Assembly: GCA_028718635.1 (NCBI GenBank) | Contig: JAQULK010000001.1 | Coordinates: 396,818-460,817 of the forward strand | Source of the DNA: Minisyncoccota bacterium | GTDB taxonomy: Bacteria > Patescibacteriota > Minisyncoccia > Phycocordibacterales > UBA9973 | Direction of reading: 5' to 3' | Length of the DNA: 64,000 bases | In this document: positions 8,552 through 63,750 of the stretch, piece by piece | How positions within the stretch are numbered: position 1 is the first letter of the stretch | Layout of the letters: the number at the start of each line of letters is the position of its first letter | Made by a program: the position numbers and the translations under genes | Notes under the pieces: model-generated | Told to the model about the DNA's origin: nothing | The model's input: only the letters and a program-made list of their open reading frames with translations | The model's database searches: none

Positions 8552-8603
8552 TACGAAGTAGCAATAAAATGGCAAAAAATTGCCGTCTTATTGCTACTTC
8601 GTA
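8552..8603. promoter_or_regulatory. Long perfect hairpin/palindrome (16-bp arms, nested 5-bp inner hairpin) ~80 nt upstream of the islet gene
   Basis: tacgaagtagcaataa ... ggcaa-aaaa-ttgcc ... ttattgctacttcgta. No T-tract on either side, so it is not a terminator. Possible operator or 5' leader structure. Confidence 0.4.
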
Positions 8604-8730
8604 ATCCATTATTCAGTTTTCAAAGTGCTGTCAATTTTGATTTTTCAGTATAGCACCTTTTCAATAATCTGTCAATAGTAATATCGTAAAATGGCTTATT
8701 TTGGCTAAATAATCCAAAAAGCAACAAGGA

Positions 8731-8785
8731 GTTTTGGGCTTTGGGCATTCACCTCTTTAATTCCCCTCTGCCCAAAGCCCAAAAC
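8731..8785. repeat. 17-bp perfect inverted repeat (gttttgggctttgggca / tgcccaaagcccaaaac) with a 21-nt loop
   Basis: Seen directly. Lies in the non-coding spacer of the islet. Confidence 0.5.
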
Positions 8786-9007
8786 GGAAAATCTTATTTT
8801 GCTCTATATTATATAAAAGAAGACCAGAAGGAAACGAATAATAAGGATGAGAAAAAATTACATCGCCTAACAAGTTGTATCAGGTTCCAGAAATTCGCCT
8901 CAATTATCTTCCAAAGGAGTGCAAATTTCTTCCACCCAAATTTTTGCCTTCTTCTTTCTTTTATATTACACTAAGGAAAGAAGGCAAAAACTTCTGATAC
9001 AACTAAC

Positions 9008-20775: not shown

Positions 20776-21774
20776 ATGTTGAATCCGAAATTAAAATTGA
20801 ATCCCAAAATTTTCAATGACGATGTCGAACAGGTCCCCATACGTAAAGGTTTCGGGCAGGGGCTGTTGATAGCGGGTGGGGTTAGTGAAAATGTCGTAGG
20901 ACTTTGCGCCGACCTGACAGAAAGCACTCAAATGAATTTATTTGCGGAAAAATTTCCCAATAGATTTATCCAAGTCGGAGTAGCAGAACAAAACCTAGTA
21001 ACAGTGGCTTCGGGTATGGCAGCTATGGGCAAGATTCCTTTTTGTTCTTCTTATGCGATGTTTTCTCCCGGGAGAAATTGGGAACAAATCAGAACAACAA
21101 TAACTTACAATGATAGGCCGGTAAAAATCGTGGGCTCTCATTCGGGTATTTCTGTGGGTCCTGATGGCGGTACGCACCAAGCGCTTGAAGACATAGCTTT
21201 GATGCGGGTGATGCCGAACGTTGACGTCATTTCTCCTTGTGACGCCCTTGAAGCTAAAAAAGCGACAATAGCGCTTGCAAAAACGGGGAAACCAGCATAC
21301 TTGCGTCTTGTTCGTGAAAAAACGCCAATCATTACCACGGAGGAAACTCCTATGCAAATAGGTAAAGCAGAAATTTTTTGGATGCCGGATGTAGGGTTGG
21401 CCCAGGTGGGAATAATCGTTACTGGCGGACTCATGTCGCACGCGCTTTTTGCCGCCAAAGAATTAGAGCAAGAAGGCATAAAAACAAAAGTGATGAATTT
21501 ATCAAGTATAAAACCAATAGATTCTGAAGCAATTGTCGCTTTAGCAAAAGAATGTAAAGCAATAGTGACAGCAGAAGAACATCAAATTGCCGGAGGCATG
21601 GGTTCGGCTGTAGCAGAGGTTTTAGCGGCCAATTATCCAACTGCCATTGAATTCATCGGTGTGCATGACCGATTCGGCCAATCCGGTACTCCAAAAGAAC
21701 TTATCGAACATTATGGTATGGGCAAAAATTCTATCAAAGAAGCGGTGAGGAAAGTTTTAAAAAGAAAAATTTAA
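20776..21774 (+). CDS. tkt: Transketolase, C-terminal (pyrimidine-binding) subunit
   Basis: 'GVAEQNLVTVASGMA', 'GPDGGTHQALEDIALMR'. Confidence 0.9.
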   Translation: MLNPKLKLNPKIFNDDVEQVPIRKGFGQGLLIAGGVSENVVGLCADLTESTQMNLFAEKFPNRFIQVGVAEQNLVTVASGMAAMGKIPFCSSYAMFSPGRNWEQIRTTITYNDRPVKIVGSHSGISVGPDGGTHQALEDIALMRVMPNVDVISPCDALEAKKATIALAKTGKPAYLRLVREKTPIITTEETPMQIGKAEIFWMPDVGLAQVGIIVTGGLMSHALFAAKELEQEGIKTKVMNLSSIKPIDSEAIVALAKECKAIVTAEEHQIAGGMGSAVAEVLAANYPTAIEFIGVHDRFGQSGTPKELIEHYGMGKNSIKEAVRKVLKRKI

Positions 21775-21785
21775 AATAGAACTTT

Positions 21786-21866
21786 TTTCGGTACGGATTT
21801 TTTGAAGCTTAAAAAATCCTGAAGTTTTCGGCTCGACAGCCTCAAAACCCCTTCAAAAGTTTATTT
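21786..21866 (+). repeat. Family C ~80-nt REP-like intergenic element, copy 1
   Basis: aactttttcggtacgg-GGATTTTTT-gaagctta-AAAAAATCC-tgaagtt-GC hairpin (ggct-cgac-agcc)-aaaaccccttcaaaagtt. Confidence 0.7.
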
Positions 21867-22867
21867 TAAATTTTTACAGTTTTATAGCTTTCTGGTATAT
21901 TTTCTAGATATTCTTCCAATTTTTCTTTTGTCAAAAGTCCTCTTTGCGCTCCGACTTCTTGGACCACGGACATAGAGTTTATGCCTGCCCAAGCCAAAGC
22001 TTCAGGCAAAGTTTTACCCAATATGGTTGCAATTACAATAGTGGAGGAAAAAGCATCTCCAGCGCCGGTGCGTTCATGGGGAGGTTTTGGATCAGGGTAA
22101 GGGGGCATAAATAAGTACTCTGCGCCGTCAAAAGTATAAGCGCCTTTTGGTCCGTCTGTAATTATCACAGTCTTTGGCCCGAGAGAATAAATCTTTTGGA
22201 GTAATTCTTTGATTTCTCCGCTATCTAACCCTAATATTTTTTTTGCTTCCTCAACATTGCAGAAAAACATATCAGTATGTTTATAGAGTCTTTGCAATTT
22301 TTCTTTTCCCAATTTTATTTCAAATTTTCCCGGCTCGAAAGCGAATTTTGTTTCTGGATGGGCATCTAAATAGTCGGCTATAGTGTAATGAAAAGGAAAG
22401 GCTGTTTCATTTACAGAACTGAAATAAATCCATTTTGGTTCGTCAAATTCTGGCAAGCTGTATGGATAAATTTCATGTTTTATTAAAATAGTTCTTTCAG
22501 CTTCATACCATAGAACAAAATGTTGATTAGTTTTTATTCCAGAATTTATTTTTATCAACTCGGTGCCGACCCCGTCCTTTTTAAGTGAATCTAAACAATC
22601 TATTCCTGCTTTATCATCCCCAACGTTGGAAACGAGCTTTGTCTCAAGTCCTAGCCGAGCAGCTGCCACCGCAACATTGCCTGCATTACCTACGGCGGGG
22701 AGAGCAAAAACATCTTCGTATGGAACTTTGTCCGCAAAAGGCAGGCATATCTCGTAATCTTTATTGTCAGGAGTCCCCTTGATGCTTGCGTCTTTTAATT
22801 TAATAAAAACATCTATCACAATATCCCCAATTGCTAAAAAATCAATTTTTTTATTGTCTTCACTCAT
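21866..22867 (-). CDS. PfkB-family carbohydrate kinase (ribokinase/fructokinase-like)
   Basis: N-terminal GG motif 'GDIVIDV' and C-terminal 'TGAGDAFSS'. Confidence 0.8.
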   Translation of the reverse strand: MSEDNKKIDFLAIGDIVIDVFIKLKDASIKGTPDNKDYEICLPFADKVPYEDVFALPAVGNAGNVAVAAARLGLETKLVSNVGDDKAGIDCLDSLKKDGVGTELIKINSGIKTNQHFVLWYEAERTILIKHEIYPYSLPEFDEPKWIYFSSVNETAFPFHYTIADYLDAHPETKFAFEPGKFEIKLGKEKLQRLYKHTDMFFCNVEEAKKILGLDSGEIKELLQKIYSLGPKTVIITDGPKGAYTFDGAEYLFMPPYPDPKPPHERTGAGDAFSSTIVIATILGKTLPEALAWAGINSMSVVQEVGAQRGLLTKEKLEEYLENIPESYKTVKI

Positions 22868-22881
22868 GGTATCATTCTACC

Positions 22882-24207
22882 ATGTTTAAAAAACTGATTC
22901 TAGTGGGGTTTGTTTTTTTATTTTTGGGATTTAAGTTGGTATTAGCTACAGAAGTGACACCGATTATTTCTTATACTTTAAATGGAACTTCTTCCAATAT
23001 TGTGGCAAATCCTGTTGTTAATCCTGTAGAAATTAAGTTCTCTGCTAATGAAAACATACCTAATTGGGTTTCAATAAAAATTGAAAAAAACGATGATTCT
23101 AGTATTTATAAAACATTTTCTCCTAATTCTTGTGACGGCACCGCTTATTGTACTGAAACATGGAATGGTGCCATATCTCCTAAAAATAAAGTCTTAGTTG
23201 ATGGTATATATAATATTTCTGTTCATGTGAAGAAAGATGTTGCAAGCCCAGTTACTTACGATTTCATATTGACTTCGCCTTATACAATAACAGTTGATAG
23301 CTCTTTATCTACTCCGTTACCTGTCTCTGATTCACCTAGTAATGATTCAAATTCTTCAACCAACACTTCAACAACTCAGCCAGAACCCAAGCCAAAAGTG
23401 ATTGAAAATCCGACCATGAAAGTAAAAATTTTAGCCAATGCTTTAGCTTTTACCGGGCAACCGCTTGAAATAAAAACTAATGTCTTAGGGTTTTCCAATG
23501 AAAATGTTGTTCTCGGCAGGGCTTCGTGGAATTTTGGCGACGGCGGTTCGTTGGAACAAATAAATAATTTTGAAAAATTTTCTCATACTTATTATTATTC
23601 AGGCGAGTATGTTTTATTTTTGGAATACTACCAAAATAATTTTTCAAAAACCCCCGAAGCGACCAGCAAAATGGTGGTAAAAGTTCTTCCGACTTCTGTT
23701 TTTATTTCTAAAGTAGGGGATGCAAAAGATTTTTTTATTGAACTCTCAAACAATGCCAGCTCGGACATAGATATCTCAAATTGGGTCATTAATGCAAATG
23801 GAAAAATTTTTATTTTTCCCAAAAACAGCGTGATTATGTCTAAAAAACAAGTAATTGTTCCTGGTAAAATAACCGGATTTACCCAGAACGATCAAAACAA
23901 CTTAAAACTTTATTCTGGAACTGGTGAATTGATATCTGATTATAATGCGGAAATACAACCCCCTAAATCTCCCCATCAAAATATGACGAGTAAAGTTTCT
24001 ACAGCGGTTCAACCGCTGGGAAATTCAGGAACTATCAATTTACAAAGCAATGTTATGAATAGTAGCAGTGAAGACAATTACTCTGTGCCCATCATTCCCA
24101 TCGCTTCTTTTGTTTTTATTGGAGCTAGCGCGGGCGCAGTTTATTTTATTCGCCGGAAAAAAGCCGTTGTCCAAGAAGGGGATGATTTTGATATTTTAGA
24201 TGAATAA
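22882..24207 (+). CDS. Membrane-anchored surface protein with a lamin-tail-like domain
   Basis: Signal peptide MFKKLILVGFVFLFLGF, Ser/Thr/Pro linker, LTD-like 'DFFIELSNNASSDIDISNWVINANGKIFIFP', C-terminal TM plus 'RRKK'. Confidence 0.6.
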   Translation: MFKKLILVGFVFLFLGFKLVLATEVTPIISYTLNGTSSNIVANPVVNPVEIKFSANENIPNWVSIKIEKNDDSSIYKTFSPNSCDGTAYCTETWNGAISPKNKVLVDGIYNISVHVKKDVASPVTYDFILTSPYTITVDSSLSTPLPVSDSPSNDSNSSTNTSTTQPEPKPKVIENPTMKVKILANALAFTGQPLEIKTNVLGFSNENVVLGRASWNFGDGGSLEQINNFEKFSHTYYYSGEYVLFLEYYQNNFSKTPEATSKMVVKVLPTSVFISKVGDAKDFFIELSNNASSDIDISNWVINANGKIFIFPKNSVIMSKKQVIVPGKITGFTQNDQNNLKLYSGTGELISDYNAEIQPPKSPHQNMTSKVSTAVQPLGNSGTINLQSNVMNSSSEDNYSVPIIPIASFVFIGASAGAVYFIRRKKAVVQEGDDFDILDE

Positions 24208-24223
24208 AAGTTACGAAACATAA

Positions 24224-24306
24224 ACTTTTCTTTGGTACGGATTTTTCGAAGCTTGAAAAATCCTGAAGTTCTCGCGCCGTCGCGCTCGAAACCCCTTCGA
24301 AAAGTT
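24224..24306 (+). repeat. Family C element, copy 2, itself nested inside a 14-bp outer inverted repeat (gttacgaaacataa / ttatgtttcgtaac)
   Basis: cttttctttggtacggatttttcgaagcttgaaaaatcctgaagttctcgcgccgtcgcgctcgaaaccccttcgaaaag. Confidence 0.7.
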
Positions 24307-24396
24307 ATGTTTCGTAACTCACGATTATAATGCCCTTTGAAATAAGGGTTTTTTCTGCTAGAATAAAAAATAGGGCAAAAATTGTCCTCTTTTTAT

Positions 24397-26286: not shown

Positions 26287-28170
26287 ATGGATTTAAAACA
26301 CATTAGAAACTTTAGCATAATAGCGCACATTGACCACGGTAAAAGTACTTTAGCGGATAGAATGCTTGAAATTACGCATACAATAGAAACACGGAAAATG
26401 CGCAACCAGTTTTTAGACTCTATGGAACTGGAGCGCGAAAGAGGAATTACTATAAAAATGCAACCCGTTCGAATGGAATACACCCCTCCCCAAACCCCTC
26501 CCCAAAAGGGAGGGGCACCTTCTCTTTTGGAGAAGGCGGGGGAAGGGGTGTATATTTTAAATCTTATTGATACGCCCGGTCATATAGATTTTTCTTATGA
26601 AGTTTCTCGAGCATTAAAGGCGGTAGAGGGTTCTATTTTGCTTATTGACTCAACTCAAGGGGTGCAAGCGCAAACGCTTACCACTCTCGCTATGGCGCGA
26701 GAGGGAGGTCTTAAAATAATCCCAGTACTCTCTAAGATTGATTCGCCTTTATCCAGAGTTTCGGAGGTAAAAGATGAAGTAGTGGATCTTTTAAATTGCG
26801 ATCCGGATGAAATTTTATTAGTTTCTGGACGCACAGGAGAAGGAGTTGAAAATCTTCTTAAGGAAGTAATAAAACGAGTACCAGAACCAAAAGAAACCAT
26901 TTCGGACGTTGGACGTCTGGATTCCGGACGTCCAACGTCCGAAATCCTGCGCGCCTTAGTTTTTGATTTTAAATATTCAAATCATAGAGGGGTGATAGTT
27001 TTTGTGCGCGTCTTTGATGGAAAAGTCGCAAAGGGCGACAGTTTGGTTTTTGCAGTTTCTGGCGAGAAATTTACCGCTCTTGAAGTCGGAACTTTTTCTC
27101 CAGAAGAAACCCCGCGCGATTTTCTTTCTCCTGGGGACACGGGTTATATCGTCACTGGCATAAAGAAGCCCGGCATAGCATCCGTTGGAGATACTATTAC
27201 GATGTTTAAAAATCCTTTGCCTGCATTTGAGGGATATATGCAACCATTGCCCGTAGTGTGGGCGAGCGTTTTTCCAGAAGATGCGGATGATTTTGCAGAA
27301 TTAAAACTTGCTTTAGGAAAATTAAAACTTTCTGATTCAGCGTTTTCCTACGAAGAAGAATCTTCTGGGTCCTTGGGCAGGGGATTCAGATGCGGATTCT
27401 TAGGAATGCTTCATTTGGAAATTATCACTGAGAGACTAAAACGCGAATTTAATTTGGAATTAGTCATCACTACGCCTTCCATCACTTATGAAGTTTTGTT
27501 AAAAAATGGAAAAAGAGAAAAAGTTTATTCCCCGTTTCATTTTCCGGACGATGGCCTAATCGAGAAGGTTTTCGAGCCTTGGGTAAGTTTGAAGATTATT
27601 ACTCCAGTCCAATATGTCGGCAGTGTTATCCAACTTCTTTTTGACCATGAGGGAGAAGTAGGTGATACAGAGAATTTTGGAGACAATCGCTCTACTATCT
27701 CCGTGAAAATGCCCTTACGAGAGCTTATGCGGAATTTTTTCGATGAATTAAAAAGTATTTCTTCTGGTTATGCTTCAATTTCTTATTCCATTGGGGAATT
27801 GCGGGAGGCAAATGTCACTAGGCTTGATCTACTAGTAGCAGACGAAGTGGTGCCAGCTTTTTCTCGGGTGGTGGCTAAAAAGAGAGCTGAAGTTGAAGCA
27901 GAAAATGCCGTCTTAAAATTAGATAATTTATTGCCGAGACAAATGTTTACTTTGAAAATTCAAGGCCGAGCGCTTGGACGGATTATTTCTTCCCGCACGA
28001 AATTCGGCATGAAAAAGGATGTGACTCAGCATATGTATGGAGGCGATATTACGCGAAAAATGAAACTTCGAGAGAAACAAAAGAAAGGCAAAAAGAAGAT
28101 GAAGGAAAGGGGACGAGTGAACATTCCGCAAGATGTGTTTTTGAAAATGATGCGAACGGGGGAAAAGTAA
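26287..28170 (+). CDS. lepA: Elongation factor 4 (LepA) carrying two in-frame palindromic insertions
   Basis: 'IIAHIDHGKSTLADR' and 'DTPGHIDF' G-domain motifs. Extra segments 'TPPQTPPQKGGAPSLLEKAGEGV' and 'ISDVGRLDSGRPTSEI' relative to canonical LepA. Confidence 0.9.
   Translation: MDLKHIRNFSIIAHIDHGKSTLADRMLEITHTIETRKMRNQFLDSMELERERGITIKMQPVRMEYTPPQTPPQKGGAPSLLEKAGEGVYILNLIDTPGHIDFSYEVSRALKAVEGSILLIDSTQGVQAQTLTTLAMAREGGLKIIPVLSKIDSPLSRVSEVKDEVVDLLNCDPDEILLVSGRTGEGVENLLKEVIKRVPEPKETISDVGRLDSGRPTSEILRALVFDFKYSNHRGVIVFVRVFDGKVAKGDSLVFAVSGEKFTALEVGTFSPEETPRDFLSPGDTGYIVTGIKKPGIASVGDTITMFKNPLPAFEGYMQPLPVVWASVFPEDADDFAELKLALGKLKLSDSAFSYEEESSGSLGRGFRCGFLGMLHLEIITERLKREFNLELVITTPSITYEVLLKNGKREKVYSPFHFPDDGLIEKVFEPWVSLKIITPVQYVGSVIQLLFDHEGEVGDTENFGDNRSTISVKMPLRELMRNFFDELKSISSGYASISYSIGELREANVTRLDLLVADEVVPAFSRVVAKKRAEVEAENAVLKLDNLLPRQMFTLKIQGRALGRIISSRTKFGMKKDVTQHMYGGDITRKMKLREKQKKGKKKMKERGRVNIPQDVFLKMMRTGEK
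26480..26551 (+). repeat. Family E GC-rich palindromic element inserted in frame in lepA (72 nt, 24 codons)
   Basis: acacccctccccaaacccctcccc-aaaa-gggaggggcaccttctc-tttt-ggagaaggcgggggaaggggtgt. Nested inverted repeats. Confidence 0.65.
26899..26945 (+). repeat. Family F 19-bp-arm perfect palindrome inserted in frame in lepA
   Basis: atttcggacgttggacgtc-tggattccg-gacgtccaacgtccgaaat. Confidence 0.65.
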
Positions 28171-28172
28171 TG

Positions 28173-28300
28173 AAATGCGAAACTCTTTCTTGGCACAAGT
28201 TTTCTGTCAGCACACATAAAAATCTGCTGATTTTTTGCTATGCTCGGCTACCCGCCTGCGCAATGCTTCCATAAAACTATGCCTGCGACGAGTTTCGCAT
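28173..28300 (+). repeat. Family D element, second (rearranged) copy, intergenic after lepA
   Basis: Shares ~60 nt with the tsaD in-frame insert (43672..43800): ctgctgatttttt-gctatgctcggct..cctgcgcaatgcttcc and cacaagttttctg. Confidence 0.55.
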
Positions 28301-28442
28301 TTAAAATTACCTACCTAAAAATCGGCGAGTAGAGCAGGATCATGCTGATGATAATCAGTATACTTACTACTGCCCAAACTATTTGTATTTTCTTTTGATG
28401 TTTTTTATTAAAAAGCATACAATAAGGATAGCATATTATGAG

Positions 28443-33802: not shown

Positions 33803-36427
33803 GTGAATGACGCTCGCCAATTTTGTCATCCTGAACTTGTTTCAGGATCTAATGCGTTTGCCAAAATAATAAAACTTTTCCGTTTCATTTTTTTCTTCTC
33901 GATATTTCTGGGAAGCTTTTTTGTTTTGGCAAACGAAGCAAGCGCGGCGACGTATTATGTGGATGCGACTCTTGGAAAGGATACATATAATGGTATAACC
34001 ACAACTATAAATGATGGAGCAAGTGAAGGTCCATGGAAAACACTAACTAAAGTAAATGCCGCGCTGAATGCCGCTTCTATTCATGCTGGTGATAGTGTTT
34101 TATTTAAAGCAGGGGAGACTTTCTTTGGCTATTTGTATGTTAAGGTAACGGGAACGGTAGGAAATATATTAACATTTGATTCCTATGGAAGTGGAAATAA
34201 ACCTATAATCGACGCTACTGGAAATAATAGCGGTATCGATCTTCGTGGAATAAATTATGTTACGTTTAATAATTTGGATGTTAGAAATGCAACATTCCAA
34301 GGATACTTTTTTCTCAATGGAAATGACCACATAACAATAAATAATGGAAGTATATCTTCTTCTGCAAAGGCTATCCATCTCTATAACAATACAATTTCAA
34401 ATCTAACAATTTCAAATCTAAATGCCAGTAATAATACATATGGTATTTATGGATTTGCCGGGGTTACTGTTAACACATTGTCCATATCCAATAGCCATTT
34501 CGACGACAACACATCAGAAGGTTTTTTCACCGATGGCACTGCGAACGGGAGTAATTTTACGATAACAGATACCACCATGTCCCGTAATGGGATCGGATCT
34601 GATAAAAATGGATTTTTACTACAAGGGACCGGCAGTACAGTTATCCTTACCAGGGTAACATCAGCCAACAACGGAGGGGATGGATTTGGTGTCCATAACA
34701 CTTGGATTGGTGTTATTTTTGATTATTGTACGGCGGATACTAACGGAACAGACGGGATAGGATCAGATGGAGACGGATTCAGTTTCCATGAGACTTCTTC
34801 TGGAATAATCAGGTATTCAATCAGCAAAAATAATTTAAAAACTGCGATTGCTCACGTTAATAGCTCCGCTGTTGAAATGTATTATGATCTTTTTTATCAT
34901 GCAACCAATGGCACCTTGCCGCTTGTTTTATTACAAAATACTGGAAATCATAAATTATATAATAATATTATTTACAGTGGAAGTCAGACTGGTGATGCAG
35001 TAAGCGTTGAAGGGACCGTTGATATGCAAAACAATATAATAGATGGTTTCAATCGTGGCCTTATAAAAACTGGAGGAACAATATCCAATGACCATGATAT
35101 TATTTATGGAGTATTAACTTCTAATTATGTTGGTATTTCTGCCGGTGCTTATTCAATTATACAGGATCCAAAATTTTTTAATTCCAGTATTTATAACTTT
35201 TCCCTTCTCCCCACTTCCCCCGCCATCGACTCTGGCACCGATGTCTCATTAACCACCGACTACGCCGGCAATTCCATCTACGGTACGCCCGACATCGGCG
35301 CTTATGAATACCAGCCGCCATATACCATGGGCACGGATGCAGTAAACACTTCCACCAGTGTCAGAATGTACGGAGACGAAAAGTTCAGAAACAAAACCGC
35401 CACCACCACGGAAACCACGGCTGATCTCTCAATTACCATTCCCGACTCGGATAAAACCAAGTGGCTGGACATAGCAGTTTCCACCTGGGACAACTCCGGA
35501 ACTTATCACAAAACCTGGACGGAAAACACTACCAGCACCATTACCAACACCCTCCATACCATCGGAGACCTGGAACCCAACAAATACTACAATGTGTCCG
35601 TGGATTCCGTTCTGGGAAACAACATTACCGGCGATAACTGTTCAAACGGCCTCTGTCTTTCCAACGCGGAAGGTAAAATATCTTTTACCTATACTGGTTC
35701 ATATTCCGAACACACCTTTGACGTGGAAGAAGGAGATAATACCGCCCCCATCCGTTCCGCCGGTTTGCCTTCCGGCAGTCAACCTGCTGGCACAACGCAA
35801 GTAACAATGTCTTTGACCACCGACGAAAACGCCACCTGCAAATACTCCACCTCTGCCGACACCGCTTACGCTTCCATGACCGATACCTTTACCACAACTG
35901 GCACCCAATCCCATTCCACCACCATTTCCGGTCTCTCCAACGGCAATACATACAATTACTATGTCCGCTGCACTGACGGCTCAAATGCTAACAGCAACGA
36001 TTACCCTATTTCTTTTTCCATTACTAACCCTACCGCGCATTCTTCAGGCAACAGTGCTCAGAGTCGAATCAACAATCTGCTCTCCATGGGCAACTACACC
36101 CAAGCGCAACAATTGGCTAATCAATACAATATTTCAATTCCAGTAATTACCACCCCGCCTACAGCACCCCTCCTGAATCAAGGAGGGGAAAGAAGTGTTA
36201 ATGCTTACAACTTTGGTCTCTCTGTTCTCAAAAAAGGAAGCAAGGGTGAGGCTGTGAAAGAATTGCAGAAGTTCTTAAACCAAGATCTGAAACTAAACTT
36301 GAAAATAGACGGCATCTTGGGATCAAAAACAACTATGGCTATCAAACAATACCAAAAAGCGCATAATCTAAAAGTGGATGGGGTAGTGGGGGAGAAGACG
36401 AGGGGGAGGATGAATGGGGAGAAATAG
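33803..36427 (+). CDS. Large secreted right-handed beta-helix protein with a C-terminal peptidoglycan-binding domain
   Basis: Signal/TM 'FRFIFFFSIFLGSFFVLANEASA', repeated 'NNxI.N' beta-helix rungs, C-terminal PG_binding_1-like 'GSKGEAVKELQKFLN...DGILGSKTTMAIKQYQKAHNLKVDGVVG'. GTG start. Confidence 0.7.
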   Translation: MNDARQFCHPELVSGSNAFAKIIKLFRFIFFFSIFLGSFFVLANEASAATYYVDATLGKDTYNGITTTINDGASEGPWKTLTKVNAALNAASIHAGDSVLFKAGETFFGYLYVKVTGTVGNILTFDSYGSGNKPIIDATGNNSGIDLRGINYVTFNNLDVRNATFQGYFFLNGNDHITINNGSISSSAKAIHLYNNTISNLTISNLNASNNTYGIYGFAGVTVNTLSISNSHFDDNTSEGFFTDGTANGSNFTITDTTMSRNGIGSDKNGFLLQGTGSTVILTRVTSANNGGDGFGVHNTWIGVIFDYCTADTNGTDGIGSDGDGFSFHETSSGIIRYSISKNNLKTAIAHVNSSAVEMYYDLFYHATNGTLPLVLLQNTGNHKLYNNIIYSGSQTGDAVSVEGTVDMQNNIIDGFNRGLIKTGGTISNDHDIIYGVLTSNYVGISAGAYSIIQDPKFFNSSIYNFSLLPTSPAIDSGTDVSLTTDYAGNSIYGTPDIGAYEYQPPYTMGTDAVNTSTSVRMYGDEKFRNKTATTTETTADLSITIPDSDKTKWLDIAVSTWDNSGTYHKTWTENTTSTITNTLHTIGDLEPNKYYNVSVDSVLGNNITGDNCSNGLCLSNAEGKISFTYTGSYSEHTFDVEEGDNTAPIRSAGLPSGSQPAGTTQVTMSLTTDENATCKYSTSADTAYASMTDTFTTTGTQSHSTTISGLSNGNTYNYYVRCTDGSNANSNDYPISFSITNPTAHSSGNSAQSRINNLLSMGNYTQAQQLANQYNISIPVITTPPTAPLLNQGGERSVNAYNFGLSVLKKGSKGEAVKELQKFLNQDLKLNLKIDGILGSKTTMAIKQYQKAHNLKVDGVVGEKTRGRMNGEK

Positions 36428-43207: not shown

Positions 43208-44422
43208 TTAGAGCCTTAAATCACCAATTGCTTTTATGCTATCTAATTTAGGAACTTTCTTTTTATTTTTTATATAATTTAAGTACCCAGCAATCCCGAT
43301 CATTATGGAATTATCTCCAATAAGTCCTTTTGGTGGAAACATAAACTTGATTTTACTTTTAGTAATTTTCTTTATTTCATCTTGCAAATATTTATTTGCT
43401 GCAACCCCTCCGGCAACAATGAGAGTTTTTATATCGTATTTTTCTAAAGCTTTTTTTGTTTTATAGGTTAGACATTCGATGGCGGCGTTCTCAAATTCCA
43501 AAGCAATTTGTTTTTTTGTATTCTGATCGATTTTCTCAATTCCGCCTAGGTCTCTTATTAAATATAAAACTGCCGTTTTAAGACCAGAAAAAGAAAAATT
43601 AAAATCTTTTGTATGCAGCATCGGGCGGGGGAGGGAGAAAGAAAGAGAATCAATCTTTATAGTGTCGCGCGAGAGAGAGAAGCGAGAAACTTGTGCGGAC
43701 TCAGCACGCATAATTTTCTGCTGAAAATTTGCTATGCTCGGCTCGACAGCCTGCGCAATGCTTCCCTCGCACAAGTTTCTCGCTTCTCCAGCTAATTTTG
43801 AAATTTGTGGCCCTCCAGGGTAAGGCAGATCAAGCATTCTGGCTACTTTATCAAAAGCTTCTCCGACTGCATCATCAAGCGTTTTGCCAATGATTTCATA
43901 ATCCATCCACTTTTTCGAAAGTACTAATTGCGTATGTCCGCCAGACACTAGAAGCGTTAGGATTGGTGTTTCCACTTTTTTTATTTTAAAAGTTCCTTTT
44001 TCTTTTCCAAAAACGGAAAGAACATGTCCTTCCATATGATTGACCGGTATCAAGGGCACTTTCCATTTTTGGGCGAGTTCTTTGGCAAAGGCGATTCCGG
44101 TCCAAAGAGACATCTCAAGACCTGGACCATAAGTTATCATTATCGCGTCTATTGGCTTTTTCTTTTTATCTAATTTGGCTTGTTTAAGACAAAGCTCAAG
44201 TAAAATAGGTAGATTCTTGATATGTTCTTGTTTAGCGAGTTTTGGGAAAACACCTCCAAAAGGAATGTGAATATTTATTTGAGAATTTGAATTATTCGCC
44301 AACACTTTAAAGGAAGCATTTGTAATGCCTCCTTTCTTGCCCGCCTTCGGCGGGTGAACTTCCATAATACTTATTGCTGTATCATCGCAAGATGTTTCGA
44401 TGCTTAAGATTTTCATTGTCAT
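43208..44422 (-). CDS. tsaD: tRNA t6A37 threonylcarbamoyladenosine synthase TsaD (Kae1/Gcp), with a ~43-aa in-frame insertion
   Basis: 'HMEGH' metal site, 'GGPQISKLA' and 'DFNFSFSGLKTAV'. Extra ~43 aa between GGP and PRPM. Confidence 0.85.
   Translation of the reverse strand: MTMKILSIETSCDDTAISIMEVHPPKAGKKGGITNASFKVLANNSNSQINIHIPFGGVFPKLAKQEHIKNLPILLELCLKQAKLDKKKKPIDAIMITYGPGLEMSLWTGIAFAKELAQKWKVPLIPVNHMEGHVLSVFGKEKGTFKIKKVETPILTLLVSGGHTQLVLSKKWMDYEIIGKTLDDAVGEAFDKVARMLDLPYPGGPQISKLAGEARNLCEGSIAQAVEPSIANFQQKIMRAESAQVSRFSLSRDTIKIDSLSFSLPRPMLHTKDFNFSFSGLKTAVLYLIRDLGGIEKIDQNTKKQIALEFENAAIECLTYKTKKALEKYDIKTLIVAGGVAANKYLQDEIKKITKSKIKFMFPPKGLIGDNSIMIGIAGYLNYIKNKKKVPKLDSIKAIGDLRL
43672..43800. repeat. 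Family D palindromic element inserted in frame in tsaD (19-bp TIRs gaagcgagaaacttgtgcg / cgcacaagtttctcgcttc)
   Basis: TIRs seen directly. The core shares gctatgctcggctcgacagcctgcgcaatgcttcc with 28173..28300. Confidence 0.65.
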
Positions 44423-45511: not shown

Positions 45512-45553
45512 ACTTGTGCAACATCCGATGTTGCACAAGTTTATTTTGCTTTT
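45512..45553. terminator. Intrinsic terminator (13-bp stem acttgtgcaacat/atgttgcacaagt) after tRNA-Ser, overlapping the trxB stop
   Basis: Hairpin followed by ttattttgctttt. Confidence 0.6.
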
Positions 45554-46545
45554 AGAGTAATATAGATATCTTCTATGGCGCGGACGGCATCGCCGGCTGC
45601 GATGAGGTTTTGATGATAGTGAATATTAGTGCAGTCCCCAGCAGCCCAAATTCCAAGGACTTCTGTTTTTTGGGACCAAGCATCTATTTTTACTTTACCT
45701 ATTTCATCTAAAGGAACCAAATCTTTTACAAAGTCAGTATTTGGAATCTGTCCGATTTCTACGAAAATGCCTGCTACTTTTAATTCTTTTTGTTCTCCGG
45801 AAATTTTATCCTTATAAATTATTCCTTCTACAAATTTATCGCCCTGTATTTCTAAAATATCAGCATTTTTTATTATTTTTATTTTTGGATTTTTTAAAAT
45901 TTTATCAATTGTAGTTTGGTCAGCGCGAAAAGAGTCGCTTCTGATTATAAGCGTGACAGATTTACAATATGCTAAAAGCTGGGAGGCTGATCCGAAAGCG
46001 GCATTACCTCCGCCGATCACAGCCACATCCATGTCTGCAAAAAGTGGACCATCACAACTGGCGCAGTAGGTAAGGCCTTTGTGCTCTAAAGTATCTGCAT
46101 TCTTAGCGGTGAGTTTTCTGTGTCCACTGCCGCTCCCTATTAAAATTGTTTTAGTTTCAAATTCCTTTCCAGATTCTGTTTTTACAGAAAAAAAGGAAGC
46201 AAGGCTTCCTTCAGCTCTTCCTTCAGCTGAAGGAAGCCTTGCTTCCTTTTTTTTAATTGCTGTTACTTTTTCGCCTTCTTTTACTTCTAGACTTTCTCCC
46301 ACATTTTCTAAAACATGTTTTTTAAAATTTTCTGCAAGTTGTGCTCCGGAGATAGCAGGGGATCCTATCCAATTTTTAATTTCTTCTGAAGCTATGCTCT
46401 GCCCACCCCACTCTGAAATAACAAAAAGTGTCTTCAGTTTCTTTCGAGCTGCGTAAACAGCCGCTGCGCTCCCAGCCGGCCCACCTCCAATAATTATTAG
46501 ATCGTAAATCATTTGCATATTATACATCATGAATAGGAATTTCAA
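45541..46545 (-). CDS. trxB: Thioredoxin-disulfide reductase with an in-frame palindromic insertion
   Basis: 'IIGGGPAGSAAAVYAAR' FAD site, 'CASCDG' redox centre. Extra 'KKEARLPSAEGRAEGSLASFF' segment. Confidence 0.85.
   Translation of the reverse strand: MKFLFMMYNMQMIYDLIIIGGGPAGSAAAVYAARKKLKTLFVISEWGGQSIASEEIKNWIGSPAISGAQLAENFKKHVLENVGESLEVKEGEKVTAIKKKEARLPSAEGRAEGSLASFFSVKTESGKEFETKTILIGSGSGHRKLTAKNADTLEHKGLTYCASCDGPLFADMDVAVIGGGNAAFGSASQLLAYCKSVTLIIRSDSFRADQTTIDKILKNPKIKIIKNADILEIQGDKFVEGIIYKDKISGEQKELKVAGIFVEIGQIPNTDFVKDLVPLDEIGKVKIDAWSQKTEVLGIWAAGDCTNIHYHQNLIAAGDAVRAIEDIYITLKAK
46187..46253. repeat. Family G 21-bp-arm perfect palindrome flanked by A7/T9, inserted in frame in trxB
   Basis: aaaaaaa-ggaagcaaggcttccttcagc-tcttccttca-gctgaaggaagccttgcttcc-ttttttttt. 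Confidence 0.7.
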
Positions 46546-52493: not shown

Positions 52494-53390
52494 ATGGCCT
52501 CGCCTATAGGACAACGGCCGAAGGAGAGTATACACCAGACAGTTCTTTTAAATGAAACAATAGAAGGTTTGAACTTGAAAATAGATTCTGTCGTTTTGGA
52601 TTGCACTTTTGGGGGAGGCGGACATAGCCTCGAGATCTTAAAAAGATTTCCAAAAGTGAAAATTATTGCGCTTGATCAAGACAAAGGTGTGTGGAGAAAT
52701 AATGATAAGAGAATTTCTTTTCATAATGAAAATTTTTCCAATCTAGATAAAGTATTGAAGGAAGAAAAAGTGGATGGCATTATCTTTGATTTAGGTTTGA
52801 GTTCTGACCAATTGGAAAATTCTGGACGAGGATTTTCTTTTATGAAAAATGAGCCTTTGCTTATGACCATGAAAGAAAATCCTCAGGCAGAAGATCTCAC
52901 TGCGATGGATATCGTAAACACATGGAATGAGAAAAGTTTGGCTGACATTATTTATGGTTACGGAGAAGAAAGATACAGCAGAAGGATAGCCAAAGGAATC
53001 GTGGAAGCAAGAAAGAAAGGAAAGATAGAGACGACCTTCGATTTAGTAAAGATAATCAGCGAGTCAGTTCCAGCATCATATAAAAGAGGGAGATTGCATC
53101 CAGCCACCAAAACATTTCAAGCATTACGAATCGCAGTCAATGATGAGTTAGGAGTTTTAAAAGATGGTTTGGAAAAAGGATTTGGCAAATTAAAGACGGG
53201 TGGAAGGATGGCAGTAATTTCTTTCCATAGCCTAGAAGACAGGATAGTAAAAAGATTTTATAAAGAATTAGAAAAAGAAGGAAAAGTAAAATTAATAAAT
53301 AAGAAAATCATTTTAGCAAGCGATGAAGAGTTAAAAAATAATCCCCGATCAAGAAGCGCAAAATTAAGAGTTATGGAAAAAATAAAATAA
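52494..53390 (+). CDS. rsmH: 16S rRNA (cytosine1402-N4)-methyltransferase RsmH
   Basis: 'LDCTFGGGGHS' SAM motif, 'FDLGLSSDQL'. Confidence 0.9.
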   Translation: MASPIGQRPKESIHQTVLLNETIEGLNLKIDSVVLDCTFGGGGHSLEILKRFPKVKIIALDQDKGVWRNNDKRISFHNENFSNLDKVLKEEKVDGIIFDLGLSSDQLENSGRGFSFMKNEPLLMTMKENPQAEDLTAMDIVNTWNEKSLADIIYGYGEERYSRRIAKGIVEARKKGKIETTFDLVKIISESVPASYKRGRLHPATKTFQALRIAVNDELGVLKDGLEKGFGKLKTGGRMAVISFHSLEDRIVKRFYKELEKEGKVKLINKKIILASDEELKNNPRSRSAKLRVMEKIK

Positions 53391-63515: not shown

Positions 63516-63637
63516 CCCATTAAAAATTTTAATTAATAATCTATATCATTATAACATGTTTTTTGAATTTCTAACGGGACAGGTAGTGCTATTTTAGCAT
63601 ACTTCTGGTATGATTTATATAGATTTATAAAATATCA

Positions 63638-63720
63638 ATTTTTCTTCGGTACGGATTTTTTTCTGTTGAAAAAAATCCTGAAGTTCTCGCGCCGTCGCGC
63701 TCGAAACCCCTTCAAAAATT
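63638..63720 (+). repeat. Family C element, copy 3
   Basis: aatttttcttcggtacgg-GGATTTTTTT-ctgttg-AAAAAAATCC-tgaagttctcgcgccgtcgcgctcgaaaccccttcaaaaatt. Confidence 0.7.
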
Positions 63721-63750
63721 ATATTTTATAAATTTTTGTTATGTTACACG

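What the first reader, a model, noticed from the sequence alone, without database searches (positions are those of the whole stretch)
43672..43800. TIR-bounded ~130-nt element inserted in frame in tsaD, with a second copy downstream of lepA
Perfect 19-bp terminal inverted repeats (gaagcgagaaacttgtgcg / cgcacaagtttctcgcttc) bound a segment that adds ~43 aa between the conserved GGPxIxKLA and PRPM motifs of TsaD. The core (gctatgctcggctcgacagcctgcgcaatgcttcc) recurs at 28173-28300 in an intergenic context. It also shares the ggctcgacagcc hairpin with family C copy 1, suggesting modular exchange between element families.
Basis: seen in the sequence. Interest (0 to 1): 0.65.

Follow-up and report, generated by a model that had tools for sequence, protein, structure and literature searches.

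The report
In-frame hairpin repeat inside tsaD
A 112-base hairpin-forming repeat sits in frame inside the essential tsaD gene of a tiny "candidate phyla radiation" bacterium, and it belongs to a previously undescribed multi-copy family that also sits in frame in other housekeeping genes, much like the palindromic elements of Rickettsia.

Summary
Perfect 21-bp inverted repeats (43677-43697 / 43768-43788) bound a 70-nt core inside tsaD (43208-44422, minus strand). A second copy lies at 28173-28302, just past lepA.

It is one member of a repeat family found only in Paceibacteria/Nomurabacteria-type Patescibacteria. Each unit is a long closing stem plus a conserved three-way-junction core, supported by strong covariation. 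An exact core pattern found 54 loci in about 30 genomes. Three sister-family copies are also in the window.

About half the copies lie at gene 3' ends. The rest are in frame in TsaD, a UvrD/PcrA-type helicase, RsmA and Fmt. Filled versus empty sites, and the same 127-nt unit at unrelated loci, show duplicative spread. I found no target-site duplication and no transposase.

In TsaD the insert replaces 0-5 residues of solved structures with about 44 residues that AlphaFold models as a disordered loop. The fold around it stays intact.

The same TsaD loop is occupied in 104 of 119 relatives, by different subfamilies, sometimes two in tandem. The core can flip between its arms and still read open.

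It works like Rickettsia palindromic elements but is not a member of that family. "Modular exchange" with family C is better read as common ancestry. How it moves, and whether it has a function, remain unknown.

The parts
43208..44422 (-). tsaD (404 aa), the host gene of copy 1
   Evidence: ORF. Pfam TsaD E=7.5e-79 in two stretches split by the insert. 100% identical to an NCBI MAG TsaD on a 671,958-bp contig.
43677..43788 (-). Copy 1, the full hairpin unit (112 nt): two perfect 21-bp arms plus a 70-nt core, read in frame as ...EARNLCEGSIAQAVEPSIANFQQKIMRAESAQVSRFS...
   Evidence: Covariance-model match 43682-43781, 97.9 bits, E=2e-25.
43768..43788 (-). 5' arm in tsaD sense (GAGAAGCGAGAAACTTGTGCG)
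43698..43767 (-). Three-way-junction core. Hairpin A is GGCUGUCGAGCC closed by UGC/GCA. Hairpin B is GCAAAUUUUC-AGCA-GAAAAUU. The core is stop-free in one frame in each orientation, both in register with tsaD.
43677..43697 (-). 3' arm in tsaD sense (CGCACAAGTTTCTCGCTTCTC)
43634..43671 (-). 3' remnant (core end plus right arm) of an older element of the L061 type. It is translated as ...SRDTIKIDSLSFS.
   Evidence: It aligns with the 3' part of the element in the closest relative's tsaD (L061) and with a similar remnant in L002. It is absent in L001.
28173..28302 (-). Copy 2, a full unit (130 nt) between the convergent stop codons of lepA (28170) and a conserved 35-aa minus-strand ORF (28311-28418)
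   Evidence: Covariance-model match 28188-28285, 73.6 bits. 89-94% identical over 127 nt, arms included, to units at unrelated loci in other genomes. The orthologous site in L055 is empty.
21768..21870 (-). Sister-family ('family C') unit between convergent transketolase-type and PfkB-type genes
   Evidence: Covariance model E=5e-8, full length. Folds as the same three-way junction. Flanking genes.
24212..24314 (-). Sister-family unit, 5 nt after the stop codon of ORF 22831-24207
   Evidence: Covariance model E=1.2e-6. Fold.
63625..63729 (-). Sister-family unit, intergenic
   Evidence: Covariance model E=2e-6. Fold.

Best explanation
The segment is one copy of a non-coding, hairpin-forming repeat family restricted, as far as sampled, to Paceibacteria/Nomurabacteria-type Patescibacteria.

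Anatomy. A unit is about 100-130 nt. It has a long closing stem of 20-45 bp whose sequence differs between most copies. The stem encloses a conserved core of 58-70 nt that folds into a three-way junction with two hairpins.

Spread. Units spread duplicatively as DNA through an unidentified trans-acting mechanism. I detected no target-site duplication and no linked transposase.

Where copies survive. They persist only where they do little harm. One place is directly past stop codons or between convergent genes, where they can take the place of a terminator hairpin. The other is permissive surface loops of housekeeping proteins. There the core's single stop-free frame in each orientation lets the ribosome read through, adding a disordered loop of about 37-44 aa. 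In this window that loop lies between GGPQISKLA and LPRPM of TsaD.

Consequences of the long arms. The complementary arms allow the core to flip over evolutionary time. Occupied sites are re-hit or overwritten, which makes the TsaD loop a long-lived hot spot.

Shown here: the structure and its covariation; the multi-copy distribution; in-frame copies in four gene families; filled and empty sites; one core flip; the disordered-loop model.

Inferred: that the insert is translated; that the family is essentially selfish or neutral; how it moves; and what keeps the arms complementary (selection, or template-switch correction of quasi-palindromes).
For: Structure. In a 40-copy alignment, 90% of cells form standard pairs, against 33-52% when partners are slid. 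27 of 41 pairs show changes on both sides, and 0 of 500 shuffles reach the observed values. Hairpin B keeps its pairing while the encoded peptide changes radically: ANFQQKIM, AIRQQADM and AISQQGNM. The constraint is therefore on the nucleic acid, not the protein.

Family size. The exact core pattern occurs in 54 loci of about 30 Patescibacteria genomes, with up to 5 loci per genome. There are 79 covariance-model hits in 514 kb of fetched loci and 5 in this 64-kb window.

Contexts. The copies split roughly evenly between intergenic sites and in-frame sites within genes. The in-frame ones lie in TsaD, a UvrD/PcrA-type helicase, RsmA and Fmt (Pfam). Intergenic copies abut stop codons.

Mobility.
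- L054's helicase has a 40-aa insert (both arms plus core) that four orthologues lack.
- Window copy 2 is absent from the orthologous L055 site, which has a plain terminator hairpin instead.
- The 127-nt copy-2 unit is 89-94% identical to units in unrelated flanks in other genomes.
- L058 and L033 have 92-97% identical flanks but different arms and core variants.

Tolerance in TsaD. Solved TsaDs have 0-5 residues where the window protein has 44. In the AlphaFold2 model (pLDDT 84, pTM 0.83), residues 222-256 score below 50 while the flanks score above 90.

Reading frames. Only one sense frame and one flipped frame of the core lack stop codons. Flipping 43698-43767 in silico leaves tsaD open.

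Flip. The L044 and L056 helicases share directly oriented arms, but the core matches 54/65 as reverse complement against 38/65 direct.

Hot spot. Of 119 TsaD relatives, 15 have no insert, 92 have one unit's worth and 8 have two. A remnant of an older element lies next to copy 1.
Against: - No transposase, no target-site duplication and no family-wide conserved terminal sequence was found, so mobility is inferred from distribution only.
- Orthologous copies keep their stems through compensatory changes over long divergence: the window, L002 and L001 in tsaD, and L027 versus L045 in fmt. The core is more conserved than the surrounding coding DNA. Both facts could instead mean a selected function.
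- G-U-type mismatches outnumber A-C-type mismatches 75 to 34 on the core-sense strand. This hints at a strand-specific RNA or single-stranded DNA role, although strand-biased mutation could also cause it.
- Translation of the insert has not been shown.
- The exact-match search biases the sample towards conserved cores.
Confidence: 0.62

Rival explanations
1. The unit is a domesticated, functional structured RNA or single-stranded DNA module. Candidates are a terminator or mRNA-stabilising hairpin, an RNase III or other processing site, or the binding site of a factor specific to this lineage. On this view its presence in tsaD, pcrA, rsmA and fmt is maintained because it acts in cis on those transcripts.
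For: - The junction and loop nucleotides of the core are highly conserved, with strong covariation.
- Stems at orthologous sites are maintained by compensatory change.
- G-U-type mismatches exceed A-C-type mismatches 75 to 34. Two core pairs are U-G or G-U, which would be mismatches on the other strand.
- Copy 2 sits exactly where a relative has an intrinsic terminator between convergent genes.
- Sites in TsaD, the helicase and RsmA are occupied across many genomes.
Against: - Intergenic copies lie in either orientation relative to neighbouring genes: roughly 9 antisense, 6 sense, 8 convergent and 3 divergent.
- The core can be flipped at the same site.
- 15 of 119 TsaD relatives do without any insert.
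- No Rfam family matches.
- Different, apparently unrelated hairpin families can occupy the same TsaD site (L062).
Confidence: 0.2
2. The unit is a programmed intragenic inverton. On this view the core is flipped reversibly between its inverted repeats to switch TsaD (and the other hosts) between two loop variants.
For: - Inverted repeats flank a segment that stays open in both orientations, in register.
- Both orientations occur in nature at the same sites. This is shown at the DNA level for the helicase in L044 versus L056.
- TsaD peptide classes pair up as reverse complements of each other.
- The concept has precedent in the paper on intragenic DNA inversions (bioRxiv 10.1101/2023.03.11.532203, found).
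Against: - The arms differ from copy to copy, so there is no common recombinase site.
- Ten clusters of TsaDs at 90% identity or more (about 60 sequences from many samples) contain no flipped or insert-less variant.
- No invertase gene was seen next to copies.
- The encoded loop is modelled as disordered.
Confidence: 0.05
3. The insert is an ancient, lineage-specific protein loop or domain of TsaD, selected at the protein level. On this view its inverted repeats are incidental.
For: Most relatives (104 of 119) have extra residues at this position.
Against: - The peptides fall into unrelated classes that are different frames or orientations of related DNA.
- The same DNA unit occurs intergenically and in three other proteins.
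- Base pairing, not amino-acid sequence, is what is conserved.
- The loop is modelled as disordered.
Confidence: 0.02
4. The insert is an assembly or binning artefact, that is, a chimeric join inside tsaD.
For: The window comes from a metagenome-assembled genome. One relative (L018) has a split tsaD at the element.
Against: - The ORF is intact.
- The same architecture recurs in dozens of independent assemblies from different projects.
- Orthologous copies differ by compensatory substitutions.
Confidence: 0.01

Closest known systems
Rickettsia palindromic elements (RPEs)
   Same: Both are palindromic repeats of about 100-150 nt with no transposase of their own. Both are found between genes and, unusually often, in frame inside unrelated housekeeping genes of a reduced genome. 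In both cases they add a peptide at positions compatible with the protein fold (review PMC10969869; here).
   Different: The host phylum is unrelated (Patescibacteria). I tested no sequence relationship. Here the conserved part is an internal three-way-junction core, and the closing stem varies between copies. The same protein loop is occupied repeatedly by several subfamilies, in tandem, and with flipped cores.
Classical bacterial MITEs (e.g. Correia/NEMIS, ERIC, RUP)
   Same: Small, multi-copy, non-autonomous and bounded by inverted repeats. They are often at gene ends and co-transcribed, and occasionally form in-frame fusions (PMC10969869).
   Different: I found no target-site duplication at filled versus empty sites. 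No terminal sequence is conserved across the family. No parent insertion sequence was identified.
REP/BIME elements with RAYT transposases, and IS200/IS605-derived palindromic elements
   Same: Recognition would be by folded hairpins rather than terminal repeats, and these elements make no target duplications. A Y1-transposase-family gene (PF01797) was seen 5.5 kb from tsaD in one relative (L004).
   Different: REPs are 20-40 nt long and extragenic. No element copies flank the L004 gene. No association with such a gene was tested genome-wide.
Intragenic invertons
   Same: A segment flanked by inverted repeats inside an ORF that stays open in both orientations. Both orientations are seen among relatives.
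   Different: There is no conserved recombinase site and no neighbouring invertase. No mixed orientations occur among near-identical sequences. Flips look like rare evolutionary events, as with the hairpin-loop inversions known from chloroplast DNA (my own knowledge, not tested here).

Membership tests
Classical MITE | Terminal inverted repeats conserved among copies (the transposase binding sites) | tested here: not met
   The arms are complementary within each copy but differ in sequence between most copies. They are conserved only within subfamilies, for example the 127-nt copy-2 type at 89-94% identity.
Classical MITE | Direct target-site duplication flanking the element | tested here: not met
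   No duplication is visible at two filled/empty comparisons (L054 helicase; window copy 2 versus L055) or at the ends of the intergenic copies I inspected.
Classical MITE | Small, multi-copy, no transposase gene inside | tested here: met
   Units are 100-130 nt. There are 54 exact-core loci, 79 model hits and 5 copies in the window.
Classical MITE | A related autonomous insertion sequence with matching ends | not tested
   None was seen in the fetched loci, but I made no systematic search.
Rickettsia palindromic elements | Palindromic repeat of about 100-150 bp inserted in frame in unrelated housekeeping genes | tested here: met
   In-frame copies occur in TsaD, a UvrD-type helicase, RsmA and Fmt.
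Rickettsia palindromic elements | Sequence homology to RPE families and occurrence in Rickettsiales | not tested
   No RPE sequences were compared. All hits here are in Patescibacteria. I therefore treat it as an analogue, not a member.
Rfam RNA families (any) | Reaches the family's gathering score | tested here: not met
   Only tRNAs pass in the window. At the element, only sub-threshold hairpin-like microRNA precursor matches appear, the best at 27.5 bits against a threshold of 75.
Intragenic inverton | Segment flanked by inverted repeats within an ORF, open in both orientations | tested here: met
   The in-silico flip of 43698-43767 gives 0 stop codons.
Intragenic inverton | Both orientations coexist in one population, driven by an invertase | tested here: inconclusive
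   No flipped variants occur in 10 clusters of TsaDs at 90% identity or more. Assemblies report only the majority orientation, and read-level data were not available.
REP/RAYT | Extragenic palindromes of 20-40 nt associated with a RAYT gene | tested here: not met
   Units are 100-130 nt and often lie within genes. The single Y1_Tnp gene seen (L004) is not flanked by units.

The most novel reading that the evidence does not exclude
The unit is not junk. On this reading it is a selected, lineage-wide nucleic-acid module: a conserved three-way-junction RNA or single-stranded DNA. It would be embedded in the coding sequence of several translation- and repair-related housekeeping genes (tsaD, pcrA/uvrD, rsmA, fmt) and at gene ends, and recognised by a Patescibacteria-specific factor. 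Its role could be co-regulation, mRNA processing or termination. The protein loops would merely tolerate it, and the invertible core would add a second state.
Probability: 0.15. Interest if true: 0.85.

Novelty: new variant of a known kind. Interest (0 to 1): 0.62.

Why it matters
Patescibacteria have some of the smallest and most streamlined bacterial genomes. Even so, this lineage carries dozens of copies of a structured repeat, including inside essential genes.

This gives a second, independent example of the Rickettsia phenomenon, in which hairpin repeats become part of proteins. It has added features that can be studied by comparison: a conserved junction core with free-running stems, core flipping, and re-use of the same protein loop.

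There are also practical consequences. These units inflate and diversify protein sequences at fixed loops, which affects alignments, orthology calls and structure prediction for this phylum. They may also break assemblies (see the split tsaD in L018).

If the core turns out to have a partner protein or a regulatory role, it would be a new RNA or DNA motif class.

Tried and rejected
1. Known RNA family. I ran Rfam at gathering thresholds over the window and at permissive E-values over both copies. Nothing relevant matched. The hammerhead-like CUGACGA string in hairpin A co-varies as a plain stem and loop.

2. Arms made by inverted duplication of the local flank at insertion. This was tempting, because some arm codons look native (EEAR in TsaD, ILSE in the helicase). 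I rejected it as a general rule. The L054 filled/empty comparison shows both arms inside the inserted 40 aa. The copy-2 arms travel with the unit between genomes.

3. Independent insertions as the only source of both orientations. I replaced this with core inversion between the arms.

4. Rapid phase variation. No flipped variants occur within clusters of 90% identity.

5. Strand bias with replication. All five window units are on the minus strand, and the plus strand has positive GC skew. However, L013 has mixed orientations within 5 kb, so I make no claim.

6. Split genes around 'intergenic' copies. The five cases I checked are distinct neighbouring genes.

7. Phage carriage. There were 0 hits in viral contigs.

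8. Exact look-up of the window's own TsaD contig. It is not on record.

9. Literature. Searches for palindromic elements or MITEs in Patescibacteria, the candidate phyla radiation or Parcubacteria found nothing relevant.

Full report
**1. What is in the sequence**

Window 43677-43788 contains a perfect 21-bp inverted repeat (43677-43697 / 43768-43788) around a 70-nt centre. It lies inside a 404-aa minus-strand ORF, 43208-44422. That ORF is TsaD: Pfam PF00814 at E=7.5e-79, matched in two stretches. It is 100% identical to a TsaD from a Patescibacteria MAG on a 672-kb contig.

The insert lies between GGPQISKLA and LPRPM. A sequence search against solved TsaD structures splits exactly there. Query residues 3-217 align to chain residues 1-192 of 8iey, and 262-383 align to 193-309. 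About 44 residues therefore have no counterpart. An insert-free relative (L060) has 29 residues from GGP to PRPM, where the window has 66.

The second copy, 28173-28302, begins 3 nt after the lepA stop codon. It shares a core of about 65 nt with copy 1, with a compensatory change in one hairpin. Both copies fold as a long stem closing a three-way junction with two hairpins (z = -7.0 and -5.8 against shuffles). No Rfam family matches.

**2. It is a family, and its structure is conserved**

An exact pattern from the core (GCATTGCGCAGGC N4-8 GCCGAGCATAG) found 54 loci in about 30 species-representative genomes. All are Patescibacteria, labelled Nomurabacteria, Paceibacterota or Minisyncoccia. Up to five loci come from one genome. 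None were found in viral contigs.

In every copy the core is flanked by complementary arms, but the arm sequence differs between most copies.

On a 40-copy, 100-column alignment, the structure I wrote down pairs 90% of cells. Slid controls pair 33-52%. 27 of 41 pairs have changes on both sides, and no shuffle out of 500 reaches the observed scores. The search pattern fixes columns 22-34 and 40-50, so the informative covariation is in the closing stem and hairpin B.

Hairpin B switches between AAUUUUC/GAAAAUU, AUCCGCC/GGCGGAU and AUUUCCC/GGGAAAU. This changes the encoded peptide from NFQQKI to IRQQAD to ISQQGN. The constraint is therefore on base pairing, not on the protein.

A covariance model built from this alignment finds both window copies. 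It also finds three full-length sister units at 21768-21870, 24212-24314 and 63625-63729, with E-values from 5e-8 to 2e-6. It gives 79 hits in 514 kb of fetched loci, including GC-rich variants. They match the model end to end, so shared ancestry explains the common ggctcgacagcc hairpin better than modular exchange does.

**3. Where copies sit**

About half of the exact-core copies are intergenic. They abut stop codons, in either orientation relative to their neighbours. The neighbouring ORFs I checked are distinct genes, not halves of a split gene.

The rest are in frame inside long ORFs:
- TsaD at the main site, and occasionally at other sites (L050, L012).
- A UvrD/PcrA-type helicase at about residue 350. 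All six orthologues examined are occupied there.
- RsmA at about residue 100.
- Fmt at about residue 70.

These host genes were identified with Pfam and aligned.

Only one of the three frames of the core lacks stop codons in each orientation. In-ORF copies use those frames.

**4. Evidence that units are gained, replaced and flipped**

Gains. L054's helicase carries a second unit near its N-terminus, a 40-aa insert made of both arms plus the core. Four orthologues lack it, and there is no direct repeat at the junctions.

Window copy 2 is missing from the orthologous lepA / small-ORF interval of L055. That interval holds an ordinary intrinsic-terminator hairpin instead. Yet the 127-nt copy-2 unit, arms included, is 89-94% identical to units in unrelated flanks of other genomes.

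Replacement. L058 and L033 have flanks that are 92-97% identical, but their units have different arms and core variants. In the window's tsaD, 43634-43671 aligns with the 3' end of the different-subfamily element in the closest relative's tsaD (L061). It is a leftover of an earlier occupant.

Flip. The L044 and L056 helicases share orthologous, directly oriented arms with compensatory differences. Their cores, however, match 54/65 as reverse complements against 38/65 directly.

The TsaD insert peptides of 119 relatives fall into classes. Several of these are frame or orientation variants of related DNA. For example, GSLSPRARGALPLGSS is the reverse-complement reading of GVSQADGPRGSAPR.

Of the 119 relatives, 15 have no insert, 4 have a short one, 92 have one unit's worth and 8 have two.

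Flipping 43698-43767 in silico leaves tsaD open. However, ten clusters of TsaDs at 90% identity or more (about 60 sequences from many samples) contain no flipped or empty variants. Flips and turnover are therefore evolutionary events, not rapid switching, as far as assemblies can show.

**5. Effect on TsaD**

An AlphaFold2 model built with 68 relatives has a mean pLDDT of 84 and a pTM of 0.83. Residues 222-256 score below 50, while the flanking blocks score above 90. The insert is modelled as a disordered excursion from an otherwise intact fold. Whether it affects TsaB or TsaE binding was not tested.

**6. Interpretation**

The best-supported reading is a selfish or near-neutral hairpin repeat. 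It spreads as DNA and is filtered by selection to gene ends and to permissive loops, where an open frame exists. This is the behaviour described for Rickettsia palindromic elements (review PMC10969869).

It is not a member of that family, because no homology was tested and the phylum is different. It fails two defining tests for a classical MITE: there is no family-wide terminal repeat sequence and no target-site duplication.

Several things remain unexplained:
- The mobilising machinery is unknown.
- It is unclear why the core is so well conserved.
- It is unclear what keeps the arms complementary at orthologous sites. The arms in the window, L002 and L001 differ by paired substitutions. So do those in the fmt copies of L027 and L045. 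Selection for a folded RNA or DNA is one candidate. Template-switch correction of quasi-palindromes, a known mutational process (my own knowledge), is another.

A functional RNA or DNA module is the main rival, which I rate at about 0.2. It is supported by the conservation, by a 75:34 excess of G-U-type over A-C-type stem mismatches, and by the terminator-position copy. It is weakened by the random orientation of intergenic copies, by flipped cores and by insert-free TsaDs.

**7. Novelty**

Full-text searches found no description of palindromic or MITE-like in-frame elements in Patescibacteria, the candidate phyla radiation or Parcubacteria. That library is incomplete, so prior description cannot be excluded.

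I class the finding as a new variant of a known kind. It behaves like an RPE but has a distinct anatomy: a conserved junction core, free-running stems, an invertible core, and repeated occupancy of the same loop.

Noticed in passing
window 46192-46249: A perfect hairpin with a 23-bp stem (extendable to about 28 bp) and an 8-nt loop, with no junction core. It lies in frame inside a Pyr_redox_2 (thioredoxin-reductase-like) ORF, 45541-46545 minus strand, and encodes ...KEARLPSAEGRAEGSLASFF.... It may be a core-less relative or remnant of the same kind of element.
   Followed up: partly
window 26899-26944: A perfect 22-bp stem with a 3-nt loop, in frame inside lepA. It encodes ...SDVGRLDSGRPTSE..., where E. 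coli LepA (from memory) has only a few residues.
   Followed up: partly
window 8552-8605, 8729-8788, 52825-52886, 33855-33937: Further long palindromes with short or unrelated loops, some of them inside ORFs. The genome appears to be rich in palindromic insertions of several kinds.
   Followed up: no
window 28311-28418 (minus strand): A 35-aa hydrophobic ORF (MLFNKKHQKKIQIVWAVVSILIIISMILLYSPIFR) convergent with lepA. Its DNA is conserved in L055, so it is probably a real small membrane protein gene.
   Followed up: partly
L004 16681-17346: A 221-aa gene with a Y1 transposase domain (PF01797) lies 5.5 kb from tsaD in one relative. It is not flanked by units of this family. It is a possible lead to the mobilising enzyme but remains unconnected so far.
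   Followed up: partly
L062 3436-3515 (tsaD of P0005): A different hairpin family, with an approximately 22-bp stem (GAACTAGAAGATTTTTCA...) and a loop of about 37 nt, encoding FSGPR..SLSQPDHEKS. It occupies the same TsaD loop in at least 7 relatives and matches the model only weakly.
   Followed up: partly
L012 (TsaD, contig end) and L050 5944-6043: One TsaD carries what look like four separate insertions at different positions. Another has a unit at about residue 62 instead of the usual loop.
   Followed up: no
L018 1382-1512 (GW2011_GWB1_37_13): In this assembly tsaD is split into two called proteins (P0122 and P0123). A stretch of about 100 nt is missing immediately upstream of the element, compared with the near-identical L003. 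This is either an element-associated deletion or a misassembly.
   Followed up: no
L059 761-1831 (tsaD of P0049): An 'insert-free' TsaD still has a -21.5 kcal/mol hairpin (GAAGAAGCTAGAG...TCTGGCTTCTC) at the site. This looks like arms left behind after loss of the core. L060 has no such hairpin.
   Followed up: partly
P0133 (member of the P0019 cluster): A 190-aa fragment whose sequence differs from its 91%-identical relatives only in the hairpin-B/left-arm part of the second TsaD element (NFFAKNLPSS versus NFFTKKFAQS). It is a local variant of unknown origin.
   Followed up: no
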